NCBI GenBank assembly: GCA_049317285.1 | Contig: JBMOIO010000005.1 | Coordinates: 1-55,702, forward strand | Source of the DNA: Minisyncoccia bacterium | GTDB lineage: Bacteria; Patescibacteriota; Minisyncoccia; Phycocordibacterales; UBA9973 | DNA length: 55,702 nt | Reading direction: 5' to 3' | Part shown: piece after piece, positions 1 through 16,482 of the stretch | Position numbering within the stretch: the first letter of the stretch is position 1 | How the letters are laid out: the number at the start of each line of letters is the position of its first letter | Position numbers and translations under genes: made by a program | The notes under the pieces: model-generated | Seen by the model: only the letters and a program-made list of their open reading frames with translations | Database searches by the model: none | What the model was told of the DNA's origin: nothing

Positions 1-103
1 AAATGATTAATTGTTAATTTAGAATGAGTGTCTGATGATTGGGGTACCTTGCAATTGCTGCACTAGTGACTGCTGAGTATACTCAAGAACATAGAATGGG
101 TGT

Positions 104-826
104 GTGAAGAAAGGGGTACCTTCCAATCCCGATTTTCCATTGCGTAAGTTTGTAATAAACCAAGATGGTAAAAAACTTACTGGTAGTTGGTCCAAAGGAC
201 GGCATAAAAGATATGCGTTTTATCGCTTTGGGGGTAATAATTCAAATCACAACAGAGATAAGTTTGAAGAAGCATTTATGGCTTATGTAAATAAATATGG
301 CTTTGATGATACAAAAATTAAAAGATTAAAAGAGCTCGTGCGAGAGAACCTAGTGAAAGCGACACTAGACCAACGCAAAGAGACGGACCGTTTGAAAAAA
401 TATATAAATGAGCTTACAGAAAAGCAGACAGGTATAATCAAAAAAAACTTAGATGGGATTATTCCTGATAATGTTTTGAAACAACAACTAGCAATGATAG
501 ACAAGGAATTACTTAATGCAAATGCTTCGCTTGCTGTGATGCCTAACACAGACACCAATTATGAGGAAGCTGTAGAGTTTCTTGAGGAATATCTGAAAAA
601 CCCAAGTGCTGTATGGAAAAATGCAAAGATAGGAGTGCAAGTTAAATTGCAATGGTTCCAATTTCCACTAGGTTTGACGTTTCAAAATAATTTTTTTGGA
701 ACCGCTGAAATATGTAGCTTTTTCAAAGTAAAAGACCTCGCCTTGGGGACGAAGTCTTCTAATGTGGACCCTAGGAGATTCGAACTCCTGACCTTTGCTT
801 TGCAAAAGCACTGCTCTACCAGCTGA
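104..826 (+). pseudogene. 5'-truncated large serine recombinase (C-terminal half only); the ORF ends antisense inside tRNA-Ala
   Basis: NPDFPLR...KLTGSWSKGR..YAFY followed by a long coiled coil resembles the LSR post-recombinase-domain region. In-frame stops lie upstream of 104 and there is no catalytic YxRxS domain. The tail VDPRRFELLT... is antisense tRNA. Confidence 0.65.
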
Positions 827-837
827 GCTAAGGGCCC
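765..837 (-). tRNA. tRNA-Ala(TGC)
   Basis: GGGCCCTTAGCTCAGCTGGTAGAGC...TTTGCAA...GGAGTTCGAATCTCCTAGGGTCCA; G3:U70 pair; anticodon TGC. Confidence 0.96.
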
Positions 838-1041
838 GTATCAATTATTAACTAAATTGCACTAAATATTGCGTCGCCCTGTATCTGCCAAAACAGCTAA
901 GGGCCCGTAGCACACATTCTACTATATTCTCCGCTGTTTGCAATACATAACTCCCCCGCCAAAGGTTTTCAGTGATTCATCGTACCACTACCGTTTGTTG
1001 ACATATTATTAATACAAGGTATTATAAAAAAACTATTTTCT

Positions 1042-1428
1042 ATGAGAAAAGTTATCGTTATGGGCCTTGGTGCCCATTGCGGTCCCGGTCTTCGAAGAAT
1101 GTTTGTACAACACCTTGCAGCAGAACCCCTTTTGTTGAGCATACACAGCTGTGGGACAGAAAGTTCTGTACTAATCATCAGTGACATAGTTGAACAAGAA
1201 CGCATTGTGCGAGAGCATGAATCTTCCAGAATGGAAGAGATGGTCATCACAAATATTTGGGAACATCTTAATAAAATTTCTGTCCTGGTTCACGATCCTG
1301 CTCTTTATGAACAATCCCCTACACTACCTTCCTGTTGTACCCCGCGCATAGCAAAAGCTATCGTGCATATCTGTCAGTACTCTAGGATACGACCGCCCCC
1401 TTTAAAAAAAGTGGGCGGTTTTTTATAA
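1042..1428 (+). CDS. hypothetical protein
   Basis: 128-aa ORF preceded by TTGACA(998)-16nt-TATTAT(1020); no recognisable family. Confidence 0.5.
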   Translation: MRKVIVMGLGAHCGPGLRRMFVQHLAAEPLLLSIHSCGTESSVLIISDIVEQERIVREHESSRMEEMVITNIWEHLNKISVLVHDPALYEQSPTLPSCCTPRIAKAIVHICQYSRIRPPPLKKVGGFL

Positions 1429-1484
1429 TGGACGAAACAGGGGTTTTAGCGTATACTGCCCGCACTACAAATAACGACATTTAT

Positions 1485-1610
1485 ATGGGCAAAAGAGATA
1501 CATCACTAGGAGCAAAGAAAAAGTCAACGCATTCACACAAGACCCAAAAGCGTCTTGCGATCAAAAAAGAAATGCTTGCAGAACGCGCTTCAAAAAAGAA
1601 GTCAAAGTAA
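1485..1610 (+). CDS. small Lys-rich basic protein (41 aa)
   Basis: MGKRDTSLGAKKKSTHSHKTQKRLAIKK...; followed by a hairpin at about 1615-1647. Confidence 0.5.
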   Translation: MGKRDTSLGAKKKSTHSHKTQKRLAIKKEMLAERASKKKSK

Positions 1611-1665
1611 TACAAACAAAAAACCGTGCACTGCACGGTCTTTTGTTTCTATCTTATAAAAATGA

Positions 1666-1923
1666 TTAGACGTTTGAGAGGTGCTTTGAAACGAGTTTTG
1701 TCATTTCAAACATAGTCACCACATCCTTGCCGTCGAAAATCTTTTTAAGCTTCTCGTCTGCAATGATATTGCGCTTGTTTGCAGGGTCCTGGAGATCATG
1801 CTTTTTAATGTAGACCCAGAGTCCTTTTACCACCTCGGTGCGGGGCATTGGGCCCTTTCCGATAATGTCTGCCAGTTCGTCGCTCAGTGCCATTGGTTTC
1901 ATCAGTCCTGAATTTGTAGTCAT
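1666..1923 (-). CDS. stand-alone SWIB/MDM2-domain protein
   Basis: LSDELADIIG..MPRTEVVKGLWVYIKKHDLQDPANKRNI.ADEKL is the SWIB signature. Confidence 0.93.
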   Translation of the reverse strand: MTTNSGLMKPMALSDELADIIGKGPMPRTEVVKGLWVYIKKHDLQDPANKRNIIADEKLKKIFDGKDVVTMFEMTKLVSKHLSNV

Positions 1924-2062
1924 AGGGTATAGTATAGCCTATTTGCAGAAATATGGTATAGCACAGAGTTATTGTTTCAAAAAAGGAAATTCTGCCACTA
2001 CTTCGTATTCGTATGCTGGCGGTGTGTAGTCAGGTCGCCTTATAGTTACTTCGTTATAGATA

Positions 2063-2518
2063 CTACGCAGTGAGATAGAACGCGAGTAAAAATAATCCAC
2101 CCCACCATCCACTATCAGAAACAATCAGGCTCATCATGATTTTCTTTTGCCAGTGCGCCGGCAATAATTCTGCCGAACGACCTTCTTTTTCTCGTTGAAG
2201 TAAAAACGGACTGACCCTAAAAGAAAGAAAGTATCCATTTACTATGAGCACTCCCGCGATAACAGCATGCACCAATGGAATACCAGAGAGGGGTTGTTCT
2301 CGATAAAAAATCAGTCCGCCAATAATAGCGCACGCAATTCCAATCCAAATCATTGGCTTGGTTATTTTATGCGTGCGCGTTGTTGCTTCAGTCCAATAGG
2401 AAGATTTTCGCCCGAGAAATCCATGAATATCTATCACTGTCACCGCCCCTAACCCAACAACAAAACCTGCAAAAAATAAAAAGAGTCCTATTGTGTCAGC
2501 GCTAATTGCAATTGTCAT
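2063..2518 (-). CDS. 4-TM membrane protein of unknown function
   Basis: Hydrophobic segments; start moved to MTIAIS to avoid overlap with the divergent HTH gene. Confidence 0.7.
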   Translation of the reverse strand: MTIAISADTIGLFLFFAGFVVGLGAVTVIDIHGFLGRKSSYWTEATTRTHKITKPMIWIGIACAIIGGLIFYREQPLSGIPLVHAVIAGVLIVNGYFLSFRVSPFLLQREKEGRSAELLPAHWQKKIMMSLIVSDSGWWGGLFLLAFYLTA

Positions 2519-2588
2519 ACAGTAATAGTATACAGCGTTTATTTGAAAAAATATATCTTTACAGTAAGGTGAAGAAAAAAGAAATAAT

Positions 2589-2903
2589 ATGAGCAAAAAA
2601 CGTATTGGATTACTCATTGCATTAATCCGAAAGAATAGCGGTATAAAACAGGGTGACTTCGCAAAAAGTCTTGAAATCACACAGCCGTATTTATCACAAG
2701 TTGAAAAAGGTATAAAAGAACCGAGTAATACCTTACTTCAAAAAATTTCTGAGAAACTTGAAGTTCCTGCAGCATTTATTCATCTCCTTTCAATTGAAAA
2801 AGAGGAGGTACGAGAAGATCGTAGAATGGCATGGGAAATGCTTACTCCTGTTATTAAACAATTATGTATTTCTATTTTTCCTGAAAAATTACAAAGTGCT
2901 TGA
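2589..2903 (+). CDS. XRE-family helix-turn-helix regulator
   Basis: IRKNSGIKQGDFAKSLEITQPYLSQVEKGIKEPS HTH_3 pattern. Confidence 0.9.
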   Translation: MSKKRIGLLIALIRKNSGIKQGDFAKSLEITQPYLSQVEKGIKEPSNTLLQKISEKLEVPAAFIHLLSIEKEEVREDRRMAWEMLTPVIKQLCISIFPEKLQSA

Positions 2904-2945
2904 CCTTATTCCTTCTGCCTAGTTTAGGTGGAGGGAATTTTTATT

Positions 2946-3132
2946 TACCCGACAGGGAATCTCTCCCTCGCCTCTCAATTCGCCAGTCGCTCATTTCGGG
3001 CTGGGCACCAGCTCAGTAGATTTCTCTGCTAAGAAATCATACTTCCGCTGTTCTCGTCCCTACGCAGGCAAAGCAATTTGCCTGCTGTCGGGTAGCAATG
3101 AAAAAACACCCGAAGGTGTTTTTTCATTGCTA
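2946..3132. repeat. tRNA-Gln 3'-end mirror structure (direct copy, spacer, interrupted inverted copy, hairpin)
   Basis: TACCCGACAGGGA 2946-2958 equals 8848-8860. GTTCTCGTCCCT[25-nt insert]GTCGGGTAGCAA 3050-3098 matches the tRNA T-arm/acceptor. Hairpin at 3093-3132. Confidence 0.8.
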
Positions 3133-3162
3133 GCCGTATGGGACGATGTAAGAAACCTGATA

Positions 3163-3195
3163 TTGACATATTGATAATAAAACGTATTATCAATA
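3163..3195 (+). promoter_or_regulatory. sigma70-like promoter overlapped by an 11-bp inverted repeat (operator-like)
   Basis: TTGACA 3163-3168, TATTAT 3185-3190; TATTGATAATA-aaacg-TATTATCAATA 3169-3195. Confidence 0.55.
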
Positions 3196-3207
3196 AAAAA
3201 TTAAATC

Positions 3208-3477
3208 ATGGCATTACTACGAAAAAACAGCATTCCCTATTGGGAAGAAAAGTTAAAGGCAGAAGAAATTAAATTCGGCGGAGATGAAAAAAATATAGTT
3301 GTGTATGTCGACAAAAGAGACGAGGAAGGACATCACGAGCTTAAGTTAACTATTGCCAAAATTGGGCGGAAGATCTTAATGTATCTCACAGGAATGGGAG
3401 GTATTGATACTAAAGGTAAGAGCAATGAGGAAATCTTTGGACAATTCATTTCATACAGATCAGTATTTTTCTCTTAA
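3208..3477 (+). CDS. hypothetical protein (cassette cargo)
   Basis: 89-aa ORF with its own promoter and a downstream hairpin (3495-3524). Confidence 0.65.
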   Translation: MALLRKNSIPYWEEKLKAEEIKFGGDEKNIVVYVDKRDEEGHHELKLTIAKIGRKILMYLTGMGGIDTKGKSNEEIFGQFISYRSVFFS

Positions 3478-3560
3478 CAACATTTTATTTTTTTGACCTC
3501 TGAGCTAATTACTTAGAGGTTTTTCTATTGCTAGCAGTGTGGGACGATATTAGAACTGTA

Positions 3561-4493
3561 TTACTGACTAAATAATCCTAAAAACCGCTTCTTAACAAGC
3601 TTTGAAATTGGGAACTTTTCGGATTTAAAAACCTTTATCTTTTCTTCTTGATTTTGATAATCCTCTATAAATCTATCAAAATCTAATGCTCCGCCATATA
3701 AACCAACTGTTTTATGTTTACTATCAATTGGCAATTTCCCAACCAGTTTAAACCTATCAACGAAATGAAGCAGGTCAACGTGGTCAACACCTAAAACACT
3801 CAGAGTAATGTCCAACTGCTTTGCATGTGAAGTAACCCATTTGTCGTACGCTTCAATTCCTTGTTCTTGCATTACTTTCATTGACTCATCAAAATTATAA
3901 CTTCCAGATGAAGGAACTTTTTTTCCTATTATTTCACACTTCTTTAAGTCTGAAATAGCAGGCTTTTTCAAGCTCTTATATGTTGTAGGTGTAAGATAAT
4001 AAGTACAACGCCCTTTATGTTGAATAATGTTTATTAAAATACATGCATAATAAAAATCATTATCACCCTTAAATGTTAAAGCATCGTCTATTTGAAAGAT
4101 AAAGTTTTTTACGGTTGTATATTTTTTTCTTTTTCGTATTTGTGATTTAGGGGTAGATATTTTAGTTAATAACTTTTCTAAATTTCTTTTTCGTGTATGA
4201 GCCTCTTTTTCTCCGGCTTCTTCATTCCACATTTTAACTCCAGCACCCTTTTGAATAATGTCTCTTACTTCAGATAAAATAGACTCTGTAAGAAAGCCTG
4301 TTTCCCAGAGTGCTAAAGCATAGGTGGTAATAAAAATTTCAATTTCTTCGTCACCAATCGCCTCATTGCGTGATTGCTCAATTTTTTCTTTTATAGTTTC
4401 TATAGGAGTTCCTGTATCATAAAGCTCCATGAATTCATTATAAATGTCATGGGCAAAATCACTGTCTATAATTTTTGTACCATCAATTGCCAT
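3561..4493 (-). CDS. hypothetical protein (element cargo)
   Basis: 310-aa AT-rich ORF, apparently co-transcribed with 4503-5105. Confidence 0.8.
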   Translation of the reverse strand: MAIDGTKIIDSDFAHDIYNEFMELYDTGTPIETIKEKIEQSRNEAIGDEEIEIFITTYALALWETGFLTESILSEVRDIIQKGAGVKMWNEEAGEKEAHTRKRNLEKLLTKISTPKSQIRKRKKYTTVKNFIFQIDDALTFKGDNDFYYACILINIIQHKGRCTYYLTPTTYKSLKKPAISDLKKCEIIGKKVPSSGSYNFDESMKVMQEQGIEAYDKWVTSHAKQLDITLSVLGVDHVDLLHFVDRFKLVGKLPIDSKHKTVGLYGGALDFDRFIEDYQNQEEKIKVFKSEKFPISKLVKKRFLGLFSQ

Positions 4494-4502
4494 ATACTGA
4501 TT

Positions 4503-5105
4503 TTATTCTCTGATACCTTCCGACCCTTTTAAGTCTATTTGCGAAGATAGTGATTTTAATATTGATGATCGGTATTCTACATCCTTTTCTGAAAGTTCAA
4601 CTTTATTATTAAGGATATCGATTATTAGGAATATTTCAAAATACTCATTTTCATAAAAATATTCTGTCTCAGAAGAATCTTGATCTAAAAATTGTCTATC
4701 ATTAAATAATTTAAATCTAATAGGCTCGCTATCTAGATTTGAACAATCTCCCTCCATCGCAACAGAGGTCATAGACAATTCATTCGCCATCACCATATCC
4801 GCTTGTTCATATCCGTATTCTTTAGAAAGAAATACGAGAAAATCATTACTTCTCTTTCCTTGTGATTTAAAGATTACTCCGTTCGGTGTGGCTACCACTG
4901 TTGGTTTACCATTCTCATCAAATGTTACTTTTGAAGTTTTATCTTGAACAATGATGCGGAATCCTATATCCCGTTCCGAAAGAATTACATCTAATATAGT
5001 CTTACCATTTTCAAATGAAACATTTTTTATAGAAAGACTAATGTCTGCAAATTCAACTTCAGAAGCTGATTTAGATTTTTTATTGGATTTAAAAAAGTTA
5101 AACAT
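4503..5105 (-). CDS. hypothetical protein (element cargo)
   Basis: 200-aa acidic ORF starting MFNFFK. Confidence 0.8.
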   Translation of the reverse strand: MFNFFKSNKKSKSASEVEFADISLSIKNVSFENGKTILDVILSERDIGFRIIVQDKTSKVTFDENGKPTVVATPNGVIFKSQGKRSNDFLVFLSKEYGYEQADMVMANELSMTSVAMEGDCSNLDSEPIRFKLFNDRQFLDQDSSETEYFYENEYFEIFLIIDILNNKVELSEKDVEYRSSILKSLSSQIDLKGSEGIRE

Positions 5106-5179
5106 ATTGCAATATTAGCATTTTAGAATTTCAGTTCCTAACTTGACCACAATAGAACATTAGCCACCCATGGAAATAA

Positions 5180-5260
5180 CCAGTCCGTCCGACGCTCCTC
5201 CGCAATACGGGGTCCCCATACAGTCTCGAAGAGCTGTATGGGGTTGCGGGGACGGGCTGG
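5180..5260. other. GC-rich nested stem-loop, candidate single-strand origin or structured RNA
   Basis: CCAGTCCGTCC/GGACGGGCTGG, CCGCAA/TTGCGG, CCCCATACAG/CTGTATGGGG, CTC-GAA-GAG tip. Confidence 0.5.
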
Positions 5261-5298
5261 GTATTTGACATATCTTTGAATAATGATTAAATGCGTAA

Positions 5299-6159
5299 AT
5301 GACCCCAAAAGATCAGTCCATGCTTAATACTCTTAATCTCCTCGTGATGCTCTCACGATCTACAAAACAGTTAGCTTTTGGTATTCCGGAAGAAGATAAA
5401 TACATACTCACAGTAACAAAGCAAAATCTCATCGATTCTGATCTTACGCTCCCTGAATTTACCAATACTTTGAACACTCTCGCTAAGAAAGGTTACGTCT
5501 GGCACATGGTATTTCATGATGAGAATCTACGCTCTCAGATAAACAATTTAAAAAATAGTGGACAACATGATCAAATTAAAACTGCACTTGAAAAATTAGA
5601 GGAAAAAGGTTTTTCAGATAAGCTTAACGAAGCATCTATTAAGCATTTCGGCGAACTAATTCCAAAAAATATTGATTTTGACTACAGTGATATTAATGAC
5701 GATAATCAAACCGCTACAGAAGCATTCAACGGTGGCTTAGAGATATATAGTAAAATGAAACCAGACGATATTGGCTTAGTTCTGTTACTGCCTTTTAGAG
5801 ACATAGAAATTCTTTTCAATAAGATTAATGACGGTAAAAAATTTGAAGAAATTCAGGATGATGGTTATTGGTATGACCCAATTAAATATGAATTTCACAT
5901 TGATGGGAAAACTATAAAGACAAGCAATCGTGGTTTCCCTAATCTTGTTCATTTCGTACTCTCAGCTATTTTTAATAATCCTAATGCTACAAAAATTGAT
6001 TATGAAGAAATAGCAGGTTTTGATTCCACTAAAGGTAATAAACCATATCGGGACGCAATGATAAAATTTATTAATAAACATCCAAAGCTTAAACAAATGT
6101 TTTCTGTTCATCTATATCATATTGAGTTTAACTCCGAAAAATACAACGACACGCAATAA
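5299..6159 (+). CDS. hypothetical protein, first gene of the Rep-recombinase run
   Basis: 286-aa ORF with TTGACA at 5265; no capsid-like basic N-terminus. Confidence 0.8.
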   Translation: MTPKDQSMLNTLNLLVMLSRSTKQLAFGIPEEDKYILTVTKQNLIDSDLTLPEFTNTLNTLAKKGYVWHMVFHDENLRSQINNLKNSGQHDQIKTALEKLEEKGFSDKLNEASIKHFGELIPKNIDFDYSDINDDNQTATEAFNGGLEIYSKMKPDDIGLVLLLPFRDIEILFNKINDGKKFEEIQDDGYWYDPIKYEFHIDGKTIKTSNRGFPNLVHFVLSAIFNNPNATKIDYEEIAGFDSTKGNKPYRDAMIKFINKHPKLKQMFSVHLYHIEFNSEKYNDTQ

Positions 6160-6201
6160 GTTGGTCAACTATGCGCAACTCTGATTTTCTATGATCTAGA
6201 G

Positions 6202-6417
6202 GTGAGCATATTTAGTAACAATTTAATACAAGAATACCAAGCAGAAATGCAGATTTCTTATGGTGTTACTATTGCCGACACTGAAGCTCAAATTCAGCTA
6301 TTAGCTTTAACTAGCAGTATGTTTCCAATAACTACTAAGGGTTCAAAGGTTGGACCGAGGGTCGGGGCTAGTATTACCCCGACTTCGGGACAACTTAACT
6401 CTTTTAACTATCAATAA
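6202..6417 (+). CDS. small hypothetical protein upstream of Rep (possible regulator or directionality factor)
   Basis: 71 aa; stop lies 2 nt before the Rep ATG; its 3' part overlaps the ori hairpin. Confidence 0.55.
   Translation: MSIFSNNLIQEYQAEMQISYGVTIADTEAQIQLLALTSSMFPITTKGSKVGPRVGASITPTSGQLNSFNYQ
6355..6388 (+). other. rolling-circle origin stem-loop with nonanucleotide TAGTATTAC
   Basis: GTCGGGG(6361-67)-CTAGTATTA-CCCCGAC(6377-83), extended by CCGA/TCGG; TAGTATTAC at 6369-6377. Confidence 0.9.
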
Positions 6418-6419
6418 CT

Positions 6420-7358
6420 ATGAGCGATACACCTAATAAAAGTCATAGATATTGTTTTACAATTCACAACTATACAAAGGTTGAATTGAAAAATTTTCAT
6501 AAACTCGCAGAAGCCTTAGAAAAGCATCGCTATATTTCTTATGGTTTGGAAATTGCCCCTGAAAACAAAACTCCTCATATACAAGGATACGTGGAATTAA
6601 AAACAGCACAGCGCTATAGTTTTCTTCACAACTATTTTAATTTCAAAAGAAAAAAAGAAGTTCTGAAATTTCATGTTGAAATTGCTAATGGTACAGCAGA
6701 AGATAATAAGAAATACAATTCTAAAGATGGAGAGTTCTTTGAATTTGGCGAATCTACTACACAAGGAACACGCACTGATTTAAAAGTAATAAAGGAAGCT
6801 GTTAAAGCAAATCCTAAAAATCTAAAAGGTACGATTGATGAACACGGAAACAACTATCAACAAATAAAATTTGCTGAATCTCTAACAAAATATTATTTAG
6901 AAAACAGAGACCCTTCAGCACCTCCTATTGTTTATTGGATATACGGATCACCTGGTATAGGAAAAACCAGAATGATCTATAGAAATTTTAAAGATGTATG
7001 TCCCGTGTCTTCTTATAATTGGTTAGGTACAGATTACGCTCAAAATGAATGTTTTCTCTTAGACGATTTTAGAAGAGATGATCTTCCATTTAATACGGTA
7101 TTAAAAATTACTGATCGTTATCCTTTTACCTTGGAATTTAAGGGTAGTCAGATACCATTGAACTCACCGTATATTATTTTCACTTCTCCTAAATCAATAG
7201 AAGAAACTTACCATTTCTCTGGTGAGGATATTAAACAGTTACACCGTAGAATCATACAAATACACATTACAGATGAAAGTGAGGCAGAAAATATTGACCT
7301 AAAGAATTTAGATCCGAAATATATTCACAAAGCCGTCAATGATTACAACCAAGAGTAG
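6420..7358 (+). CDS. rep: CRESS/circovirus-like replication initiator (HUH endonuclease + SF3 helicase)
   Basis: Motif I CFTIHN, II PHIQG, III YNSK, QGTRTDL linker, Walker A GSPGIGKT, Walker B LLDDF, motif C IFTS, Arg finger LHRRI. Confidence 0.93.
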   Translation: MSDTPNKSHRYCFTIHNYTKVELKNFHKLAEALEKHRYISYGLEIAPENKTPHIQGYVELKTAQRYSFLHNYFNFKRKKEVLKFHVEIANGTAEDNKKYNSKDGEFFEFGESTTQGTRTDLKVIKEAVKANPKNLKGTIDEHGNNYQQIKFAESLTKYYLENRDPSAPPIVYWIYGSPGIGKTRMIYRNFKDVCPVSSYNWLGTDYAQNECFLLDDFRRDDLPFNTVLKITDRYPFTLEFKGSQIPLNSPYIIFTSPKSIEETYHFSGEDIKQLHRRIIQIHITDESEAENIDLKNLDPKYIHKAVNDYNQE

Positions 7359-7361
7359 TTT

Positions 7362-8906
7362 ATGCATAATACGAAAGCAATGACTAAATACGTCCTATAC
7401 GCCCGAAAATCTTCCGAGAGTGAAGATAGACAGGTTAAATCACTAGACGACCAAGAAACTGAAATGCTCACTATAGCCAAGCGTGAGGGCTTAGAGATAG
7501 TGCAAATAATCAGAGAATCCCACTCAGCGAAAACAACCAAAGAAAGACCAGAATTCAACAACATGATAAAAGGGATTCAGTCTGGAAAATTCACAGCGAT
7601 ACTTACATGGGCACCTGATCGTATTTCTCGAAATGCGGGAGATTTAGGTATCGTGATTGATTTGATGGACGCTGGAAAACTAGAGTGTATTAAAACCTTT
7701 TCTCAAACGTTCCATAATGACCCCTATAGTAAGTTTATGTTCCTAATGTTAGGTTCTCAAGCCAAACTAGAAAATGATCAGAAGAGTTTAAACGTGAAGC
7801 GTGGAAATAGAGAAAAACTAAAACGTGGCGAATGGGTTAACGGTGCTCCTTTTGGATACCTTAACGACAAGGTTAACAAAACAATAATTAAAGATCCGAA
7901 ACAGGCTCCGTATGTTTATAAGATGTTTGAAATGTATTCAACTGGGCTATTCAGCTTTAAACAAATATCCGAAAAATTATATGAGCAAGGTTTACGGACT
8001 AACTCAAATAAAAAGATATATAAAGGATCAATTCACAGAATAATTAATCGAACCTTCTATTATGGCTTGATGGTTTCAGACGGAAAATATTATCAAGGCA
8101 ATCACGAACAAATTGTTTCTCAACAACTGTTTGAAAAATGCCAAGAATTATCTGGAAACAAAACTCGTCCTCGAGCTAAGACGAAAGGCTTTACGCTTTC
8201 AGGATTTATGAATTGTGATAAATGTGGGTGTGCTATCACCGCTGAAATTAAGAAAGGTAAATATATCTACTATCACTGTACTTCAGGCAAAGGGACTTGT
8301 GATCAAAAATCTTTAAACACAAGAGAAGAAGATATACACGACTATATCGCTAAAGATATGGAGAAGTTATATATCAATCAAAAGATTGTAGATATTGTAT
8401 ATAAAGCGAAACTTGAAGAATTACAGCAAAACGGAGAGTTCCATAATCACAGCCTAGACACTACTCGTGAAGCTCTAAAATCGCTCGTACTGCGTAAATC
8501 TCGGTTAGTAGACACATTTACTAATGGCGACATAGAAGAAGCCTTATACAAAGAGAAATTACTATCTTTAGAGAATGAAAAAGTTAGCCTTACCAAACAA
8601 GTAGCCGATATTGAACAAAATAATCCTGACCCGTATGCAACTATCGAACTCATCTATAATGAATTTAAGCAAGGAAATACAATGGCGAAACGCTATAGAG
8701 ATGCTTCACCAGACGAAAAGAGAATAATACTCTCAAATTCACTATCGAACTTTACCCTCAAGGATAGAAATAACTTTAAGTTACAATACAAAACTCCTTA
8801 TAGTGTGTTCGCAAATACACCCGTAAATGTATCTTTTTCAGACTTGCTACCCGACAGGGACTCGAACCCCAATTATCTGGACCAAAACCAGGTGTCCTAC
8901 CATTAG
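7362..8906 (+). CDS. large serine recombinase (resolvase, recombinase, Zn-ribbon and coiled-coil domains)
   Basis: YARKSSESEDRQ, RPEF, DRISRN, APFGY, CDKCG..YYHC..C; the last 18 aa are antisense tRNA-Gln. Confidence 0.95.
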   Translation: MHNTKAMTKYVLYARKSSESEDRQVKSLDDQETEMLTIAKREGLEIVQIIRESHSAKTTKERPEFNNMIKGIQSGKFTAILTWAPDRISRNAGDLGIVIDLMDAGKLECIKTFSQTFHNDPYSKFMFLMLGSQAKLENDQKSLNVKRGNREKLKRGEWVNGAPFGYLNDKVNKTIIKDPKQAPYVYKMFEMYSTGLFSFKQISEKLYEQGLRTNSNKKIYKGSIHRIINRTFYYGLMVSDGKYYQGNHEQIVSQQLFEKCQELSGNKTRPRAKTKGFTLSGFMNCDKCGCAITAEIKKGKYIYYHCTSGKGTCDQKSLNTREEDIHDYIAKDMEKLYINQKIVDIVYKAKLEELQQNGEFHNHSLDTTREALKSLVLRKSRLVDTFTNGDIEEALYKEKLLSLENEKVSLTKQVADIEQNNPDPYATIELIYNEFKQGNTMAKRYRDASPDEKRIILSNSLSNFTLKDRNNFKLQYKTPYSVFANTPVNVSFSDLLPDRDSNPNYLDQNQVSYH

Positions 8907-8917
8907 ACGATCGGGTA
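8847..8917 (-). tRNA. tRNA-Gln(TTG)
   Basis: TACCCGATCGTCTAATGGTAGGACACCTGGTTTTGGTCCAGATAATTGGGGTTCGAGTCCCTGTCGGGTAG. Confidence 0.95.
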
Positions 8918-8947
8918 CTATATTTGGTGCTTGTTTTATACCACTTT

Positions 8948-9997
8948 TTAGGGAGTTTTGGAAGCTTCCAGTCCGAGCATGTCGATGAAGGCGAGCTCAA
9001 GCGGAAGTGTCGGCACTGAGGCATACGCCAACCGCTCGATTGCCGTGATCATCGAAACAATACCGCGGGAAGAGATAGTGTCAGTCCCCTCCACTGCCCC
9101 GCGCTTGATCACCTCTACATACTGCTCGGAATAATCCGCTTCAATACTCTCCCGCTGTGTGGGCGCATAGCGGTACATGAGTGATAATCGCATGGTTGAA
9201 AGAAAAAGCTCGGCCAAGAGCATCATATCGGTGTGCACTTCAGAAGCATTCCCGAGTATTGCATAGCACGCATCGATGTCGCGATTGATAAGCGCGGTGT
9301 ACAGGTTATGAATGACGCGAAGGCTTGGCGCACCAGTCACGCGCTCGGTAAGCTCGCGGTCTATCACGCGCCCTTTAGCAGCCGAAAATACTTTCTGCAG
9401 AATACTTAATGTATCGCGGAATGACCCAGCCCCTAAAAATGCAATCAAGCTCGCGCTATCCGCATCGATTTCAATACGCTCATTTTTTGCAATCGCTTCG
9501 ATACGCGCGATAAGCATTTTTTCACTCGGCTTTCGAAAAGCAAATACCTGACAGCGGGAAAAGATTGTTTCCGGCACTTTATCAAGCTCGGTTGTTGCGA
9601 GAATAAATAGCACATGCGCCGGCGGTTCTTCAAGTGTCTTCAACAGTGCGTTGAACGCTTCTTTCGTGAGCATGTGCACTTCGTCGATAATATAGACCTT
9701 AAATGCAGATGAGAAAGGAAGGACTCGTACTGCTTCGCGAAGCGCCCGAATGTCGTCGATACCACGGTTGCTTGCCGCATCAATTTCCATGATATCTTCA
9801 GGATTAGTACCGAGCGCTCGCGCAAAGATGCGGGCGACAGAAGTCTTCCCTGTTCCGCGGGAGCCAGTGAAAAGGTATGCGTGTGAGAAGTTGTGGTCTT
9901 CAATGGACTGCGAAAGGACAGAGACGATATGGTCCTGCCCTTCTACTTCCCCCCACTCGTTTGGTCGATATTTTCTGTATAAGACTTGGTCGTGCAT
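8948..9997 (-). CDS. dnaX: DNA polymerase III subunit gamma/tau
   Basis: [42 protein letters not shown]. Confidence 0.96.
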
Positions 9998-10001
9998 AGA
10001 G

Positions 10002-11977: not shown

Positions 11978-13243
11978 CTATGCACCCAAATAGTCTTTGC
12001 CAATGTAGGGCTTGAGCACTTCTGGTACGCGAATGCGCCCATCGGCTTCTTGGAAGTTTTCAACAATGCAGGCCAAGATGCGCGGCGTTGCAACAAGGGT
12101 GTTGTTCAAAGAGTGCGCATAGCGCAGTTTCCCTGTCTCGTCTTTATAACGAATATTGAGGCGGCGCGTTTGGAAGTCATGAAAATAGGACGAGGAGTGT
12201 GTCTCGCGGAATTTTTCTTGGCTTGGCATCCACACTTCGATATCGTATTTCTTTACCTGGCCTAAGCCCAGATCTCCTCCGCAGTTCACCACAACATGAT
12301 AGTGAAGCCCGAGAGACTCAAGCAATTCTTCAGCATTACGGGTGAGCTCTTCGTGGAATGCCACGCTGGTCTCATGGCTTGCTTCGCAGAGTATGACCTG
12401 TTCGAGCTTGAAAAATTCGTGCACGCGAATCAGTCCTTTTACATCCTTTCCATGACTGCCCGCTTCACGGCGAAAACACGGTGAAAGCGCAATGTATTTC
12501 TTTGGAAGCGTTTGTGCATCAAGCACTTCGTCTGCATGGTATGACATCATCGCAACCTCTCCTGTTCCCGCGAGATACGTATCGTCCTGTGTCTTATACA
12601 AATCTTCCTCGCCTTGCGGAAGGTAGCCAGTACCGTAGAGTGTCGCTTTGCTTACCAACGACGGCACATGCATAGGCGAGTATCCTTTTTTCAAGAGTGC
12701 GTGCATAAAATATTGCCACAGTGCCATCTCCAAGAGCACGCCATCGTTTTTCAAATAGTATCCGCGAAAGCCTGCGACGCGAGTTCCGCGCTCAAAGTCC
12801 ACCATGTCATTTTTTTCCATCAGTTCAATATGATCTTTTGGAGTGAAATCAAATACGGGCCGGTCCCCCCATACTTTATGTTCGACATTTTGACTGTCGT
12901 CCGCGCCTTCGGGCACTGACATATCCGGAACATTCGGCACCTGAAGCATGAGCCCCTGCCACTCTTTCATCACGGTGCGCACCTCTTCTTCAAGTGTCTG
13001 CACCTTTTCTTTCAGTGGCTTGATTTCTATCAAGAGCACCCCGCGGGCTGCCGGATCAGAAGCCTGAGCCACCAAGTCAGAGAGACGAAGCTGTTCAGTA
13101 CGAGCAGCTTCAAATGCCGCAAGAGTACTTTTGCGTTTTTCTTCCACAGCAAGAAGCGTGTCGAGGTCAAAAGAGAGGTGTTTTTTTCGGAGCGCCTCTT
13201 TGATAATCTCTGGGTTTTCCTTGATAAATTTAATATCGAGCAT
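11978..13243 (-). CDS. serS: serine--tRNA ligase
   Basis: MLDIKFI, FRREAG, GLIRVHEF, KKYDIEVW. Confidence 0.97.
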   Translation of the reverse strand: MLDIKFIKENPEIIKEALRKKHLSFDLDTLLAVEEKRKSTLAAFEAARTEQLRLSDLVAQASDPAARGVLLIEIKPLKEKVQTLEEEVRTVMKEWQGLMLQVPNVPDMSVPEGADDSQNVEHKVWGDRPVFDFTPKDHIELMEKNDMVDFERGTRVAGFRGYYLKNDGVLLEMALWQYFMHALLKKGYSPMHVPSLVSKATLYGTGYLPQGEEDLYKTQDDTYLAGTGEVAMMSYHADEVLDAQTLPKKYIALSPCFRREAGSHGKDVKGLIRVHEFFKLEQVILCEASHETSVAFHEELTRNAEELLESLGLHYHVVVNCGGDLGLGQVKKYDIEVWMPSQEKFRETHSSSYFHDFQTRRLNIRYKDETGKLRYAHSLNNTLVATPRILACIVENFQEADGRIRVPEVLKPYIGKDYLGA

Positions 13244-13310
13244 GGGTACACTATAGCGTATTTTGGTTATTTTATAAAATCTTTATCTACCACCCGTTAC
13301 TATATATAGT

Positions 13311-14186
13311 ATGCAACCGGAACAGTACCCTCTCATCACGATTAATCCCCTTTTATCATTCCCTGACCTTGGAGAGCTCCCTCAGCCCCCGAAAAAACTC
13401 ACTATGCGCGGATCCCTTGAGCGAGTGCAAGGGACAAGACTCTTGGCGGTGGTCGGATCGCGCAATTACAGTAGTTATGGGAAAGCAATGTGCGAATCAT
13501 TGATCAAGGGACTTGCCGGATACCCAGTGACAATAGTTTCAGGGCTCGCACTTGGCATCGATTCGATTGCGCATCGAGCAGCGCTCGATGCAGGACTCAA
13601 CACGATCGCATTTCCTGGGAGTGGCTTGAACTGGAGTGCGCTCTATCCGCAAAACCATAAAGAACTCGCAAAAGATATTCTCAACGCGGGTGGCGCACTT
13701 TTGTCAGAATTTGAAAACGACTTGGGCGGAGTGTACTGGGCATTCCCCCAGCGCAACCGGCTCATCGCTGGTATTTCACTGATGACCCTTGTCATTGAAG
13801 CAGAGGAAAAGTCCGGGACACTCATCACGGCGCGCCTTGCGACCGAATACAACAAAACAGTAGGTACCGTGCCGGGCGCTATCAACACACAAACAGCTCG
13901 TGGTGCAAACTGGCTCTTGAAACTCGGCGCGGTTCCTGTCACCGAAACCGCAGACATCCTCAAAGAACTTGGTCTTATTGAGCGCTCTAGTGCCGACAGT
14001 ACAGAATACTTATTACTCAACTCCGAAGAAGAGCGGATCATGCACGCATTGTCAGAACCAAAAACAAAAGACCGTATTATTGAAGAACTAGAGTTGGATG
14101 CAGGACAGGCAAATATCACTTTTTCAACCTTGGAAATAAAGGGTGCTATCAAAGAAACGCTTGGCCTCATCGAACGAATCCTATAG
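13311..14186 (+). CDS. dprA: DNA-processing protein DprA
   Basis: AVVGSR, VSGLALGID, FPQRNRLIAG, SGTLITA. Confidence 0.95.
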   Translation: MQPEQYPLITINPLLSFPDLGELPQPPKKLTMRGSLERVQGTRLLAVVGSRNYSSYGKAMCESLIKGLAGYPVTIVSGLALGIDSIAHRAALDAGLNTIAFPGSGLNWSALYPQNHKELAKDILNAGGALLSEFENDLGGVYWAFPQRNRLIAGISLMTLVIEAEEKSGTLITARLATEYNKTVGTVPGAINTQTARGANWLLKLGAVPVTETADILKELGLIERSSADSTEYLLLNSEEERIMHALSEPKTKDRIIEELELDAGQANITFSTLEIKGAIKETLGLIERIL

Positions 14187-14247
14187 AGGGCTTTATTGTA
14201 TTCTATTTGCTAAAAAAATCCCTCCGTGGTACTACTGCAGTACGTTT

Positions 14248-16482
14248 ATGAAACTTCTTATTGTCGAATCCCCTTCAAAAGCAAAAACGATTGAGAAATA
14301 TCTCGACGGCGCGTATACCGTGCGCGCATCCGTCGGACACATCCGCGACTTGCCTAAGTCCCAAAAAAAAGCCATCGATATTGAAGGTGGCTTTATTGCG
14401 CATTACGAAATTTCAAAAGGAAAAGAGCGTGTGGTGGATGAATTGCGCGCACTCGCACAAAAAGCGAATGAGATTATTCTCGCTCCCGACCCGGACCGAG
14501 AAGGAGAAGCGATTGCCTGGCATATTGAAGAGCTCTTAAAGGCCGACAAGAAAGTAAAGTCTCCTATTCATCGCGTGACCTTTAATGAAATCACAAAAGA
14601 AGCAGTCCTTTCTGCTCTCGACCATCCGCGCGCAATCGACACGAACCTTCGCCGTGCCCAAGAAGCGCGCCGTGTGCTTGACCGACTTGTGGGCTACGAC
14701 CTCTCGGGTATCATCTGGCAAAAAGTCCGCTACGGCCTCTCTGCAGGGCGCGTACAGTCCCCGGCCCTTCGCATCCTTGTCGAGCGCGAGCGCGAGATCA
14801 AGGCATTTATCCCAGAAGACTACTGGGTGCTCACTGCGCGAGTACAAACCAAGAGTAAGGCAGCGCTGACACTCACCTGTGTTGAAGAGCCACGTAACAA
14901 AAAGGAAGTTGACCGCATTCTCGACATTGCAAACAAAGAAGACTGGCTTGTGCGCGATGTAAAAGAGACAGAGCAAAAGCGCTCTCCAAAACCGCCGTTT
15001 ACCACTTCCACACTACAGCAGGCAGCAAGCTCCCGCCTTTCTTTCTCGCCGTCGCGCACCATGCAGGTCGCGCAAAAGCTCTATGAAGCGGGACATATCA
15101 CCTACATGCGAACAGACTCAACAACCCTTTCCGCGCAGGCAGTGCCATTGATCACAGCAGTTATCCAGAAAAAGTATGGGAAAGAATATCTCGAAGCCCG
15201 CACCTATAAAACAAAATCAAAAAATGCGCAGGAAGCCCACGAGGCAATCCGCCCTACTCATTTTGAAAAAGAAAGTTTAGGCAACACCGACGAACAGAAA
15301 AAGCTCTACCGCCTTATTTGGGAGCGCACTGTAGCGTCGCAAATGTCAGACGCAAAAGTACTCAAGACGCGCGTTGTGGGAAATGTCGAGTCTCTTTCTA
15401 TTCCTGATTTTACCGTCATCGGCTCACAAGTACTTTTCCCCGGATGGCTCGCAGTGGACACGTCCGCACGCGGAGACGATGTTGAGCTCCCTCCTATCAA
15501 AGAAGGTGAACCCTTGAAACTTCTTGAGGCAACCGACACTGCAAAACAAACTGAACCGCCACATCGCTATTCAGAAGCGGGCCTCGTCAAAGAGCTTGAA
15601 GCGCGCGGTATTGGTAGACCTTCGACTTATGCGTCTATCATTTCAACCCTTGAAACACGCGGCTACATTGAAAAGATCAACCGCTCTCTAAAACCTACCG
15701 ACACCGGCGAAGTAGTATCTGGATTTTTGGAAGCGAACTTCATGGAGTACATCAACGATACCTTCACCGCCGAGATGGAAGACAAGCTCGACGATATTGC
15801 AGCCGGCACCCGCGAATACAAAAAAGTGCTCACTGAATTCTACAAGCCCTTTCAGAAGGATGTGAAAGAAAAGCAAAAGCTCGACAAGGCAACAACACTT
15901 GAAGCGGCAGACCCGAAATACAAATGTCCAAAATGTGAAAGTGGTATGGTGGTCAAGCTCGGGCGCGGTGGAAAGTTTCTTTCCTGCGACCGCTATCCGG
16001 ACTGCGACGGCGCGCTCACGATTGAAGGTCTGGAAATCAAAAAGGATGAACCGATCGGCATCGACCCTGAAACCGAACTTCCTATCTTCACTATGATTGG
16101 ACGCTTTGGGCCATATGTCCAACTTGGCATCATGCCACCAAAGGTAAAGGGTAAAAAAACAGTAAAGCCGAAGATGGCGAGTATCCCGCGCGAAGTGGAC
16201 CCTACTGCAGTTACTGTACCAATGGCGCTGAAATACCTCTCTATCCCCCGCACTCTTGGTGCACACCCAACAGACGGCGTGGAGGTCACCGCCAACAACG
16301 GGCGCTTTGGCCCCTATATCGCGCACGACGGCAATTTCCGCTCAATCAAAAAGCCGCTTGATGTTTACACAATTACCTTTGAAGAAGCACTCGACTTGTT
16401 AGCACAACCTAAAAAGCCCCGCGGTTTCCAAAAGAAAAAGAAAGAAGACGTGTCCGACGAAGCTTTGGCGAAGGCGGAATAA
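14248..16482 (+). CDS. topA: DNA topoisomerase I
   Basis: IVESPSK, DPDREGE, SAGRVQS, ITYMRTD, Zn finger and C-terminal repeats. Confidence 0.97.
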   Translation: MKLLIVESPSKAKTIEKYLDGAYTVRASVGHIRDLPKSQKKAIDIEGGFIAHYEISKGKERVVDELRALAQKANEIILAPDPDREGEAIAWHIEELLKADKKVKSPIHRVTFNEITKEAVLSALDHPRAIDTNLRRAQEARRVLDRLVGYDLSGIIWQKVRYGLSAGRVQSPALRILVEREREIKAFIPEDYWVLTARVQTKSKAALTLTCVEEPRNKKEVDRILDIANKEDWLVRDVKETEQKRSPKPPFTTSTLQQAASSRLSFSPSRTMQVAQKLYEAGHITYMRTDSTTLSAQAVPLITAVIQKKYGKEYLEARTYKTKSKNAQEAHEAIRPTHFEKESLGNTDEQKKLYRLIWERTVASQMSDAKVLKTRVVGNVESLSIPDFTVIGSQVLFPGWLAVDTSARGDDVELPPIKEGEPLKLLEATDTAKQTEPPHRYSEAGLVKELEARGIGRPSTYASIISTLETRGYIEKINRSLKPTDTGEVVSGFLEANFMEYINDTFTAEMEDKLDDIAAGTREYKKVLTEFYKPFQKDVKEKQKLDKATTLEAADPKYKCPKCESGMVVKLGRGGKFLSCDRYPDCDGALTIEGLEIKKDEPIGIDPETELPIFTMIGRFGPYVQLGIMPPKVKGKKTVKPKMASIPREVDPTAVTVPMALKYLSIPRTLGAHPTDGVEVTANNGRFGPYIAHDGNFRSIKKPLDVYTITFEEALDLLAQPKKPRGFQKKKKEDVSDEALAKAE
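16451..16478 (+). repeat. REP-like hairpin repeat, copy 1 (inside the topA 3' end)
   Basis: TGTCCGACGAAGCTTTGGCGAAGGCGGA, similar to 20617-20646. Confidence 0.6.

What the first reader, a model, noticed from the sequence alone, without database searches (positions are those of the whole stretch)
3528..8849. Capsid-less integrative element joining a circovirus-like Rep and TAGTATTAC origin to a large serine recombinase
Seen: an intact 312-aa Rep with all HUH (FTIHN, PHIQG, YNSK) and SF3 (GSPGIGKT, LLDDF, IFTS, LHRR) motifs. About 40 nt upstream is a GC stem-loop presenting TAGTATTAC, and 3 nt downstream an intact LSR begins. The block is bounded by TTGCTA cores at tRNA-Gln, predicting a 5316-bp circle. 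Established: TAGTATTAC on a hairpin is the nick site of Circoviridae/Nanoviridae-type CRESS viruses, and HUH+SF3 Reps also occur on bacterial pCRESS plasmids. Inference: a tRNA-targeting integrative rolling-circle replicon in a CPR-like host. It is either a prokaryotic relative of eukaryotic CRESS Reps or a captured Rep+ori module. I do not know of a described family with this Rep+ori+LSR layout.
Basis: partly seen in the sequence, partly recalled or inferred. Interest (0 to 1): 0.93.

Follow-up and report, generated by a model that had tools for sequence, protein, structure and literature searches.

The report
Integrated circovirus-like replicon in tiny bacterium
A 5.3-kb mobile element sits at the end of a tRNA-Gln gene in a very small bacterial genome; it joins a circovirus-type replication protein and origin to a serine integrase, and the same module recurs in dozens of related uncultured bacteria.

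Summary
Rep (6420-7358) has Viral_Rep and SF3 helicase domains. A hairpin 43 nt upstream presents TAGTATTAC. An intact large serine recombinase (LSR, 7362-8906) follows Rep by 3 nt and runs antisense into tRNA-Gln.

The module is a conserved family. Rep is followed by an LSR in 35 of 36 related loci with enough sequence. A (T/C)AGTATTAC hairpin with compensatory stem changes lies upstream of Rep in 35 of 37 loci, the window included.

The left border carries a conserved arm that, joined to the LSR gene at the core, encodes AVWDD(V/I)RT...stop. Its outer TCGAAC-like motif lies 5 bp further out than in the tRNA arm, which is the published attP/attB rule for serine integrases.

New here: ORF 6202-6417 is predicted to bind the flanks of the LSR coiled coil (0.74; controls 0.00), so it is a candidate excision factor. 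No capsid gene was found, and cargo varies between elements.

On an unrooted tree the Rep clade lies among small circular contigs, some with circovirus-capsid-like ORFs.

No circle junction was seen, because only assembled contigs were available. Integrative plasmids with CRESS-like Reps have been known since 2019. I file this as a new variant of that kind.

The parts
3528..3533 (+). attL core TTGCTA, shared with attR; in relatives the core is GCTG
3534..3575 (+). P' arm of attL. It reads AVWDDIRTVLLTK-stop, in frame with the LSR ORF if joined at the core. GGGA lies at +8 and TAGAAC at +18 from the core.
   Evidence: 15 copies in 7 sources (the window and 6 loci), with variation in the AVWDD codons at third positions only
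3561..4493 (-). Cargo ORF, 310 aa. It resembles widespread bacterial hypothetical proteins; a DUF4259 lead is carried by 17% of one cluster. It is not conserved in related elements.
4503..5105 (-). Cargo ORF, 200 aa, near-orphan with one relative at 49% identity. Its fold is unresolved.
5299..6159 (+). Conserved accessory ORF, 286 aa. The model is helical with winged-helix-like parts. No family was found and it is not a jelly roll.
   Evidence: tblastn hits in 12 of 41 family loci
6202..6417 (+). Small ORF, 71 aa, with a conserved N-terminal core of about 45 aa. It is a candidate recombination directionality factor. Its 3' end overlaps the origin hairpin.
6359..6385 (+). Origin hairpin: stem GGGTCGGGG/CCCCGACTT with loop CTAGTATTA. 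The nonamer TAGTATTAC is at 6369-6377.
6420..7358 (+). Rep: HUH (HUQ-type) endonuclease fused to an SF3 helicase
7362..8906 (+). Large serine recombinase. The last 19 codons are antisense tRNA-Gln in the integrated state.
8844..8849 (+). attR core TTGCTA at the 3' end of tRNA-Gln
8846..8917 (-). tRNA-Gln(ttg), intact. It forms the B' arm of the target, with TCGAAC at +13 from the core.
3127..3527 (+). Remnant with a second attL-like site: TTGCTA plus a P' arm reading AVWDDVRNLILTY-stop, whose outer motif is decayed. It also holds an 89-aa ORF and a terminator-like hairpin.

Best explanation
This is an integrated, plasmid-like mobile element of 5316 bp (3534-8849) in a CPR-type bacterium. It belongs to a conserved family whose core is a small candidate excision factor, a nonanucleotide hairpin origin, a Rep and an LSR.

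Inferred life cycle:
- The LSR recombines an attP that lies inside the 3' end of its own gene with an attB made of the last bases of tRNA-Gln and its terminator. The tRNA stays intact.
- Integration replaces the LSR's natural C-terminus (AVWDD...) with antisense-tRNA codons.
- Excision restores the full ORF and yields a double-stranded circle. It probably needs the 71-aa protein as directionality factor.
- On the circle, Rep nicks the TAGTATTAC loop and drives rolling-circle replication, as circovirus and nanovirus Reps do.
- The cargo differs between elements.

Shown here: the gene content, the conservation of the module, the compensatory changes in the hairpin, the att half-site architecture and the integrated state.

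Inferred: nicking, rolling-circle replication, the existence of the circle and the role of the 71-aa protein.
For: Domains. The best solved relative is porcine circovirus 2 Rep (7lar), collinear over residues 5-281, E 6.6e-23.

Catalytic residues. These are invariant in 33 aligned family Reps: H53, Q55, Y99, K102, G181, K182, D215, D216, R276 and R277.

Family size. 149 proteins scored E<=0.001, and the first 115 listed share 45-100% identity. Some lie on contigs up to 1.04 Mb, and sources name several Paceibacterota.

Synteny. Rep is followed by an LSR on the same strand in 35 of 36 loci with at least 300 nt after Rep.

Origin. A (T/C)AGTATTAC hairpin lies 25-53 nt before Rep in 35 of 37 loci, the window included. 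One miss had only 62 nt available. There are 25 distinct hairpins with stems of 7-14 bp, for example GTCGGGG/CCCCGAC, GCCATAG/CTATGGC and GTCGTG/CACGAC. GGGAC-type repeats follow the hairpin.

Integration sites. In the window and 14 loci the LSR ORF ends inside tRNA-Gln; in others it ends inside tRNA-Ser or tRNA-Asn. The P' arm GCNGTNTGGGAYGAY was found 15 times, always to the left of Rep on the same strand, and it translates to AVWDD(V/I/F)R. TCGAAC lies at +13 in 12 of 12 B' arms and [TA][CA]GAAC at +18 in 14 of 15 P' arms, while GGGA lies at +8 in all 15 P' arms and in the B' arms I read by eye. This is the 5-bp shift that passages of PMC11722253 give for serine-integrase attP against attB. 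Contig L066 carries a P|P'-type junction.

Candidate excision factor. The 71-aa ORF scored 0.74 against LSR residues 150-500, with the best of 3 controls at 0.00. That mark was reached by 58 of 80 solved complexes and 2 of 110 mismatched pairs. The runs agree in at least 70% of contacts and the partner pLDDT is at least 77. The interface covers LSR 338-353 and 424-486, flanking the coiled coil.

Assembly. One 17,981-nt Logan contig spans the stretch with no differences, though it may come from the source sample.
Against: - No circle junction, empty site or raised depth was seen. Only assembled contigs were available, and they cannot show rare forms.
- None of 31 metagenomic family contigs has terminal repeats that would mark a circular assembly.
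- The element is rare: 0 of 400 other sampled genomes of the phylum hold the Rep.
- The complex prediction may reflect likeness to solved integrase-RDF complexes and used my own alignments.
- Tandem P' arms and stray copies of the tRNA 3' end to the left of the element are unexplained.
- The left half-sites (P and B arms) show no clear 5-bp rule. I compared them by eye only, on the sequences printed.
Confidence: 0.8

Rival explanations
1. It is a provirus: a temperate CRESS-type virus of CPR bacteria whose capsid protein is too divergent to recognise, for example the 200-aa ORF at 4503-5105 on the strand opposite Rep.
For: The nearest Reps outside the clade lie on 1.8-2.7-kb contigs. Their antisense ORFs have Arg-rich N-termini and sub-threshold Circo_capsid hits of E 7e-07 and 0.0019, below the cut-off. 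The 200-aa ORF is beta-rich in a poor model and has a Lys-rich N-terminus.
Against: The 200-aa ORF has a single relative in 5.8 billion clusters and no tblastn match in 42 related loci, so it cannot be the family's capsid. The conserved 286-aa ORF is helical. Cargo elsewhere is membrane proteins, an FtsK-like protein, a methylase and nucleases. No Pfam or PHROG structural family was hit.
Confidence: 0.07
2. Rep serves mainly as a relaxase-like nickase for single-strand transfer between cells (mobilisation) and not for autonomous plasmid replication.
For: HUH enzymes act as relaxases in other elements (recalled, not from a call). One family member carries an FtsK/SpoIIIE translocase.
Against: An FtsK-like gene was found in 1 of 41 loci and not in the window. 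The SF3 helicase with invariant Walker and arginine-finger residues, and the iteron-like repeats beside the hairpin, fit a replication initiator.
Confidence: 0.08
3. It is an inactive relic that is fixed in the chromosome and no longer mobile.
For: Only the integrated form was seen. A decayed remnant lies next to it.
Against: All four core ORFs are intact and both att half-sites keep their motifs, whereas the neighbouring remnant has lost its outer motif. The catalytic residues are invariant in the family. GC is about 15 points below the flank. Same-family genomes lack the Rep. One of them, G256, has tRNA-Gln without Rep or LSR beside it.
Confidence: 0.04
4. It is an assembly chimera that joins a CRESS-virus contig to a bacterial contig.
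For: None was found.
Against: The same Rep-LSR-tRNA layout occurs in dozens of independent assemblies. A second assembler's contig spans the stretch without differences, although possibly from the same sample.
Confidence: 0.01

Closest known systems
Integrative pCRESS plasmids of bacteria (pCRESS1-8; Kazlauskas et al. 2019, PMC6668415, passages read)
   Same: Both have a Rep with an HUH endonuclease fused to an SF3 helicase, encoded in a bacterial chromosome within a site-specifically integrated element that has no known viral structural genes.
   Different: That paper's main text reports 4 bacterial phyla and contains none of the words 'candidate phyla', 'Parcubacteria', 'recombinase', 'integrase' or 'tRNA'. 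The Rep here has no tblastn match in 72,556 PLSDB plasmids. It keeps features that PMC8780604 (passages) reports as typical of viral Reps: Thr in motif II, Asp in Walker B (Glu in pCRESS1 and pCRESS2), and both arginine fingers (only the second in pCRESS2-4). Placement among pCRESS1-9 could not be tested.
Circoviridae and related CRESS-DNA viruses (Cressdnaviricota)
   Same: The Rep is collinear with PCV2 Rep, including the HUQ-type motif II. TAGTATTAC sits on a hairpin just upstream of rep on the same strand, with repeats beside it. That this layout is the circovirus and nanovirus origin is recalled knowledge. The nearest outgroup contigs are small circles with circovirus-capsid-like ORFs.
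   Different: No capsid gene was found. The element is integrated in a bacterial chromosome by an LSR, measures 5.3-8.3 kb and carries cellular-type cargo. Identity to the nearest small circular contigs is 33-40%.
Large serine integrase elements (phage Bxb1, phiC31 and SPbeta type)
   Same: The domain set matches (PHROG integrase 6.8e-85). The att sites show a 5-bp outward shift of the outer motif in attP. A small partner is predicted at the coiled-coil flanks, where the SPbeta RDF binds.
   Different: attP lies inside the integrase gene's own 3' end, so integration swaps the C-terminal tail. The target is the 3' end of a tRNA gene. The replication module is a CRESS-type Rep and not a phage one.
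Actinomycete integrative and conjugative elements such as pSAM2 (recalled from memory, no call)
   Same: The logic is the same: a tRNA-targeted site-specific integrase combined with a rolling-circle Rep on one small element.
   Different: As I recall, pSAM2 uses a tyrosine integrase, a Rep without an SF3 helicase and an FtsK-like transfer protein. Here an FtsK-like gene occurs in 1 of 41 loci and not in the window.

Membership tests
Cressdnaviricota (CRESS-DNA viruses) | Rep with an HUH-superfamily endonuclease fused to an SF3 helicase | tested here: met
   Pfam Viral_Rep and RNA_helicase are above their cut-offs. The match to PCV2 Rep is full-length, E 6.6e-23. The catalytic residues are invariant.
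Cressdnaviricota (CRESS-DNA viruses) | Origin: a conserved nonanucleotide in the loop of a hairpin near rep | tested here: met
   present in 35 of 37 loci (window included), with compensatory stem changes.
Cressdnaviricota (CRESS-DNA viruses) | Capsid protein gene | tested here: not met
   No structural family was hit in Pfam or PHROGs. The conserved 286-aa ORF is helical. Cargo is variable and cellular in type. One orphan ORF is unresolved.
Cressdnaviricota (CRESS-DNA viruses) | Small circular single-stranded DNA genome in virions | not testable with these tools
   Only assembled contigs of the integrated form were available.
pCRESS integrative plasmids | A CRESS-like Rep on a site-specifically integrated, capsid-less element in a bacterial chromosome | tested here: met
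pCRESS integrative plasmids | Rep falls inside one of the clades pCRESS1-9 | not testable with these tools
   No named reference sequences were at hand and the supplement of PMC6668415 was closed. Indirect evidence: no PLSDB match and virus-like motif features.
Large serine recombinase (integrase) systems | Resolvase catalytic domain, recombinase domain and a zinc ribbon with a coiled-coil insert | tested here: met
   R15 and S17 are invariant in 21 aligned sequences.
Large serine recombinase (integrase) systems | The attP half-site carries the outer motif about 5 bp further from the centre than attB does | tested here: met
   Right half-sites: +13 in 12 of 12 B' arms against +18 in 14 of 15 P' arms. 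The rule is as stated in PMC11722253. The left half-sites were not resolved.
Large serine recombinase (integrase) systems | A cognate recombination directionality factor | tested here: inconclusive
   The 71-aa ORF passed the complex test (0.74 against 0.00). This is a model, not a measurement. A weak second copy lies near another LSR island (E 0.0013).
Actinomycete integrative and conjugative elements (pSAM2-like) | An FtsK/SpoIIIE-type transfer protein beside the integrase and Rep | tested here: not met
   Absent from the window and present in 1 of 41 family loci.

The most novel reading that the evidence does not exclude
A lineage of circovirus-like Reps, with the canonical TAGTATTAC origin, replicates in CPR bacteria as part of a self-integrating plasmid. 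On my unrooted tree the clade lies among small capsid-bearing circles. That suggests a recent crossing between capsid-bearing CRESS-DNA viruses and a bacterial element, in either direction. Some 'eukaryotic' CRESS viruses in metagenomes may therefore have bacterial hosts. In addition, the integrase gene spans its own attP. The enzyme then has two C-terminal tails, one in the circle and one in the chromosome, and this may act as a built-in sensor of state alongside a newly recognised small directionality factor.
Probability: 0.35. Interest if true: 0.85.

Novelty: new variant of a known kind. Interest (0 to 1): 0.66.

Why it matters
[quoted passage not shown] This family is bacterial and chromosomally anchored, so its host is known. 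It keeps a circovirus-like Rep and the canonical nonanucleotide origin, and its nearest outgroup contigs look like real small viruses. That gives a concrete system for testing in which direction Rep and origin modules move between viruses and plasmids. It also lets one test whether such Reps work in bacteria.

It adds a mobile-element type to CPR bacteria, whose genetics are poorly known. In this 652-kb genome, 8 of 34 tRNA genes are abutted by LSR genes.

It also offers a compact integrase, candidate RDF, attP and attB set with a natural tRNA target.

Tried and rejected
Reads. The look-up of sequencing runs listed 3 runs of one study, all held as Logan contigs, and no RNA holder of the stretch. 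Read laying showed the integrated form in one contig, no joints and one unrelated loose end. This can show neither the circle nor its absence, and it says nothing about expression.

Circular contigs. None of 31 metagenomic family loci has terminal repeats of 12 nt or more.

Empty site. A same-family genome, G256, has dnaX and tRNA-Gln followed by 5.6 kb of other genes before a homologue of ORF 2063-2680. It has no Rep or LSR. It is too diverged (dnaX 54% identical) to serve as a strict empty site.

Direct repeats. The longest repeat of the tRNA 3' end, 13 nt at 2946-2958, first suggested a border at 2946. I rejected it as the border of the intact element because it is not preceded by an LSR 3' end, whereas the P' arm at 3534 fits the LSR frame and the spacing rule. 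It may bound an older composite island.

Hairpin covariation tool. In one search I gave the helix two columns out of register on a MAFFT alignment whose loops differ in length, so the result is void. I replaced it with a script that finds each stem.

Structures. The 286-aa ORF has no PDB match below E 0.05. The 200-aa ORF has AF2 pLDDT 43.7 and Atlas pLDDT 0.36, both unusable. NCBIfam and PADLOC returned nothing for the cargo or for Rep.

Rfam. Only the two tRNAs were found in 1-10000.

Phylogeny. Named Cressdnaviricota and pCRESS references were not available. The tree is unrooted (midpoint rooting for drawing only) and several outgroup branches are long. I left out the two 159-aa partial Reps (L041, L042), the IMG/VR loci L032-L040 and L043-L053, and the metagenome loci L092-L108.

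Literature. Searches found no description of this family. PMC12796364 and PMC12455944 (passages) were irrelevant. Supplements were closed and not requested.

Full report
WHAT IS THERE

The window is contig C5 of a 651,795-bp genome in 10 contigs, rated 99.6% complete. Between 3534 and 8849 lies a block with GC of 0.30-0.38, against 0.47-0.54 in the host genes to its right.

It holds six ORFs:
- two leftward cargo ORFs, 3561-4493 (310 aa) and 4503-5105 (200 aa);
- four rightward ORFs: 5299-6159 (286 aa), 6202-6417 (71 aa), Rep 6420-7358 (312 aa) and an LSR 7362-8906 (514 aa).

Pfam confirms Viral_Rep plus the SF3 'RNA_helicase' domain in Rep, and Resolvase, Recombinase and Zn_ribbon_recom in the LSR. 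The nonamer TAGTATTAC at 6369-6377 is the only copy in the window. Alone it is not significant. It lies in the loop of a hairpin that folds better than 199 of 200 shuffles. tRNA-Gln(ttg) lies at 8846-8917 on the minus strand, and the LSR ORF runs 61 nt into it, antisense.

IT IS A CONSERVED FAMILY AND NOT A CHANCE NEIGHBOURHOOD

A protein search gave 149 relatives of Rep, and the first 115 listed share 45-100% identity. They include proteins on contigs of up to 1.04 Mb and several that their sources name Paceibacterota.

I fetched 11 loci from species-representative genomes and 31 family loci from metagenomes.
- Rep is followed on the same strand by an LSR in 35 of 36 loci with at least 300 nt after Rep. 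The exception, L082, has only a partial Rep match.
- A (T/C)AGTATTAC hairpin lies 25-53 nt before Rep in 35 of the 37 loci examined, the window included. L055 has none within 260 nt and L070 had only 62 nt available.
- There are 25 distinct hairpins with stems of 7-14 bp. The stems differ by paired changes, such as GTCGGGG/CCCCGAC, GCCATAG/CTATGGC, GCCGTAG/CTACGGC, GTCGAGG/CCTCGAC and GTCGTG/CACGAC.
- Short GGGAC- or GGGAA-type repeats follow the hairpin.
- In 33 aligned Reps the metal-binding H and Q, the catalytic Y and K, Walker A and B, and both arginine fingers are invariant.

The element is nonetheless rare. The Rep occurs once in this genome and in none of 400 other sampled genomes of the phylum.

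BORDERS AND THE INTEGRATION MECHANISM

In the window and 14 loci the LSR ORF ends inside tRNA-Gln. In others it ends inside tRNA-Ser or tRNA-Asn. To the left of Rep, on the same strand, I found 15 copies of a conserved arm, GCNGTNTGGGAYGAY..., each directly after GCT(G/A).

Read in the frame that the LSR ORF has at its own GCT(G/A), the arm encodes AVWDD(V/I/F)R(T/N), then a few residues and a stop. Within the five AVWDD codons the copies differ only at third positions. The arm is therefore the natural 3' end of the LSR gene, separated from it by integration. In other words, attP lies inside the gene.

The right half-sites obey the rule stated for large serine integrases in PMC11722253 (passages read). 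The inner motif (GGGA at +8) keeps its place. The outer motif is TCGAAC at +13 in 12 of 12 tRNA arms, where it is the T-loop box, and [TA][CA]GAAC at +18 in 14 of 15 element arms.

Because the crossover is in the last four bases of the tRNA gene, the tRNA stays whole and only its trailer changes. One metagenomic contig, L066, shows the LSR reading on into a P'-like arm (GALDDLRT...). That is an attP-type junction, from either a circle or a tandem array.

THE NEIGHBOURHOOD IS AN INSERTION HOT SPOT

A second P' arm lies at 3133, with a decayed outer motif. It heads a 400-bp remnant holding an 89-aa ORF. Other loci carry two to four such arms.

Further left, a 13-nt copy of the tRNA 3' end (2946-2958) and an inverted copy close a strongly structured 150-nt segment. 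Three other loci have similar copies. I cannot explain these features.

Within this genome, 8 of 9 LSR genes run antisense into a tRNA gene. The integration style therefore belongs to a wider LSR clade, of which only this member carries a Rep.

OTHER GENES

The 71-aa ORF has a conserved core of about 45 aa (FS..LI.EYQ.EM..YGV.V....AQ..L..L.R..F). It is open in all 18 sources examined, the window and 17 loci, and its tail may or may not run through the hairpin.

A complex prediction of its first 50 residues with LSR residues 150-500 scored 0.74, with the best of 3 controls at 0.00. That mark was reached by 58 of 80 solved complexes and 2 of 110 mismatched pairs. The runs agree in at least 70% of contacts and the partner pLDDT is at least 77. 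The counts hold only roughly, because my own alignments were used.

The interface covers LSR 338-353 and 424-486. This is just after the zinc ribbon (279-333) and in the C-terminal stretch, which I take to be the flanks of the coiled coil. [quoted passage not shown] The pass may therefore reflect likeness to solved complexes. I treat the ORF as a candidate directionality factor.

The 286-aa ORF is found in 12 of 41 family loci. Its model (pLDDT 81.5) is helical with winged-helix-like parts and has no PDB match below E 0.05. It is not a jelly roll.

The 310-aa ORF resembles widespread bacterial hypothetical proteins. The 200-aa ORF has one relative and no usable model.

Cargo in related elements includes an FtsK/SpoIIIE protein, an EcoRI-type methylase with a GmrSD/HNH nuclease, a DUF2726 protein and membrane proteins. 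No capsid-like gene is conserved.

RELATIONSHIPS

The best solved relative is PCV2 Rep. No plasmid of PLSDB matches, and four CRESS-type records in the phage collection match weakly. IMG/VR holds only distant relatives, with the best full-length match at 33% identity, on contigs of 1.8-4 kb. Ten of the 13 that I examined carry terminal repeats, which mark circular assemblies.

An exhaustive search found 12,566 representative proteins at E<=0.001 and 203 at E<=1e-30. Scores fall from 494 to 243 bits within the family, then form a continuum from 190 bits downward.

In a maximum-likelihood tree of 57 Reps, the LSR-linked clade is monophyletic (support 100/99, stem length 0.92). It sits among small contigs: P0116; P0117 with L021 and L022; P0118-P0120; L083; and L023. 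L022 and L023 carry antisense ORFs with Arg-rich N-termini and sub-threshold Circo_capsid hits. The tree is unrooted and some branches are long, so the direction of transfer is open.

WHAT IS KNOWN

Kazlauskas et al. 2019 (PMC6668415, passages) described pCRESS1-9. Most Reps of groups 1-6 and 8 lie in site-specifically integrated, capsid-less plasmids in four bacterial phyla. The kind is therefore known.

PMC8780604 (passages) lists motif features that separate viral Reps from some pCRESS Reps, and the Rep here has the viral states. Five literature searches found no description of this family.

From memory, pSAM2-type elements of actinomycetes are the nearest functional analogue: integrase, rolling-circle Rep and tRNA target.

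VERDICT

This is a real, intact member of a conserved family of integrative, probably rolling-circle-replicating elements of CPR bacteria. It is a new variant of the pCRESS kind with three notable traits: a circovirus-like Rep and origin, an LSR whose gene spans its own attP, and a candidate small RDF. Replication and excision remain to be shown.

Noticed in passing
whole genome G000 (C3, C5, C6, C7, C9, C10); in the window 104-826 with tRNA-Ala 764-837, and 55032-55700 with tRNA-Leu 54693-54778: Eight of 9 LSR genes in this 652-kb genome have ORFs that run antisense into a tRNA gene (Gln twice, Glu twice, Arg, Ser, Leu, Ala), out of 34 tRNAs found. Three contig ends fall inside LSR genes. Only one island carries a Rep.
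   Followed up: partly
window 2944-3098, minus strand: A segment of about 150 nt folds at -66 kcal/mol (z -5.5). It is closed by a stem made of a direct and an inverted copy of the tRNA-Gln acceptor/3' end, and has no Rfam match. Similar copies of the tRNA 3' end lie left of the elements in L010, L055 and L074.
   Followed up: partly
window 3127-3527; L055 569, 1356, 2101, 4822; L059 128, 1043; L061 5919, 6946, 7627: Arrays of attL-like P' arms stand in tandem, each preceded by a different terminator-like hairpin and T-run. They suggest repeated insertion at one tRNA with decay of older copies, or small non-autonomous elements.
   Followed up: partly
L054 780-2153 (-); L015 5189-7475 (-); L010 7989-8525 (-): Cargo of related elements includes an FtsK/SpoIIIE-family protein, an EcoRI-type adenine methylase beside a GmrSD_N+HNH nuclease, and a DUF2726 protein.
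   Followed up: no
L019 (a contig that its record assigns to a Crocinitomicaceae MAG) and L011 (Saccharibacteria MAG): Family members occur in bins named outside Paceibacteria. L019 targets tRNA-Asn and has a covarying hairpin stem. Either the bin is wrong or the host range is wider.
   Followed up: no
G000:C10, minus strand, near 16908: A weak profile match (E 0.0013) to the 71-aa candidate RDF lies about 2.2 kb upstream of another tRNA-targeting LSR (13164-14591, minus strand) that has no Rep.
   Followed up: no
L060 and L066, about 650 nt upstream of Rep: ARAGORN calls an 83-nt 'tRNA-Gly(acc)' inside both elements. I did not check it further.
   Followed up: no
window 1666-1923 (-) and 2589-2903 (+): An 85-aa ORF that looks like a SWIB/MDM2-domain protein (by eye, not searched) and an HTH_3 regulator lie in the moderately low-GC stretch between the two tRNA-linked islands.
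   Followed up: no
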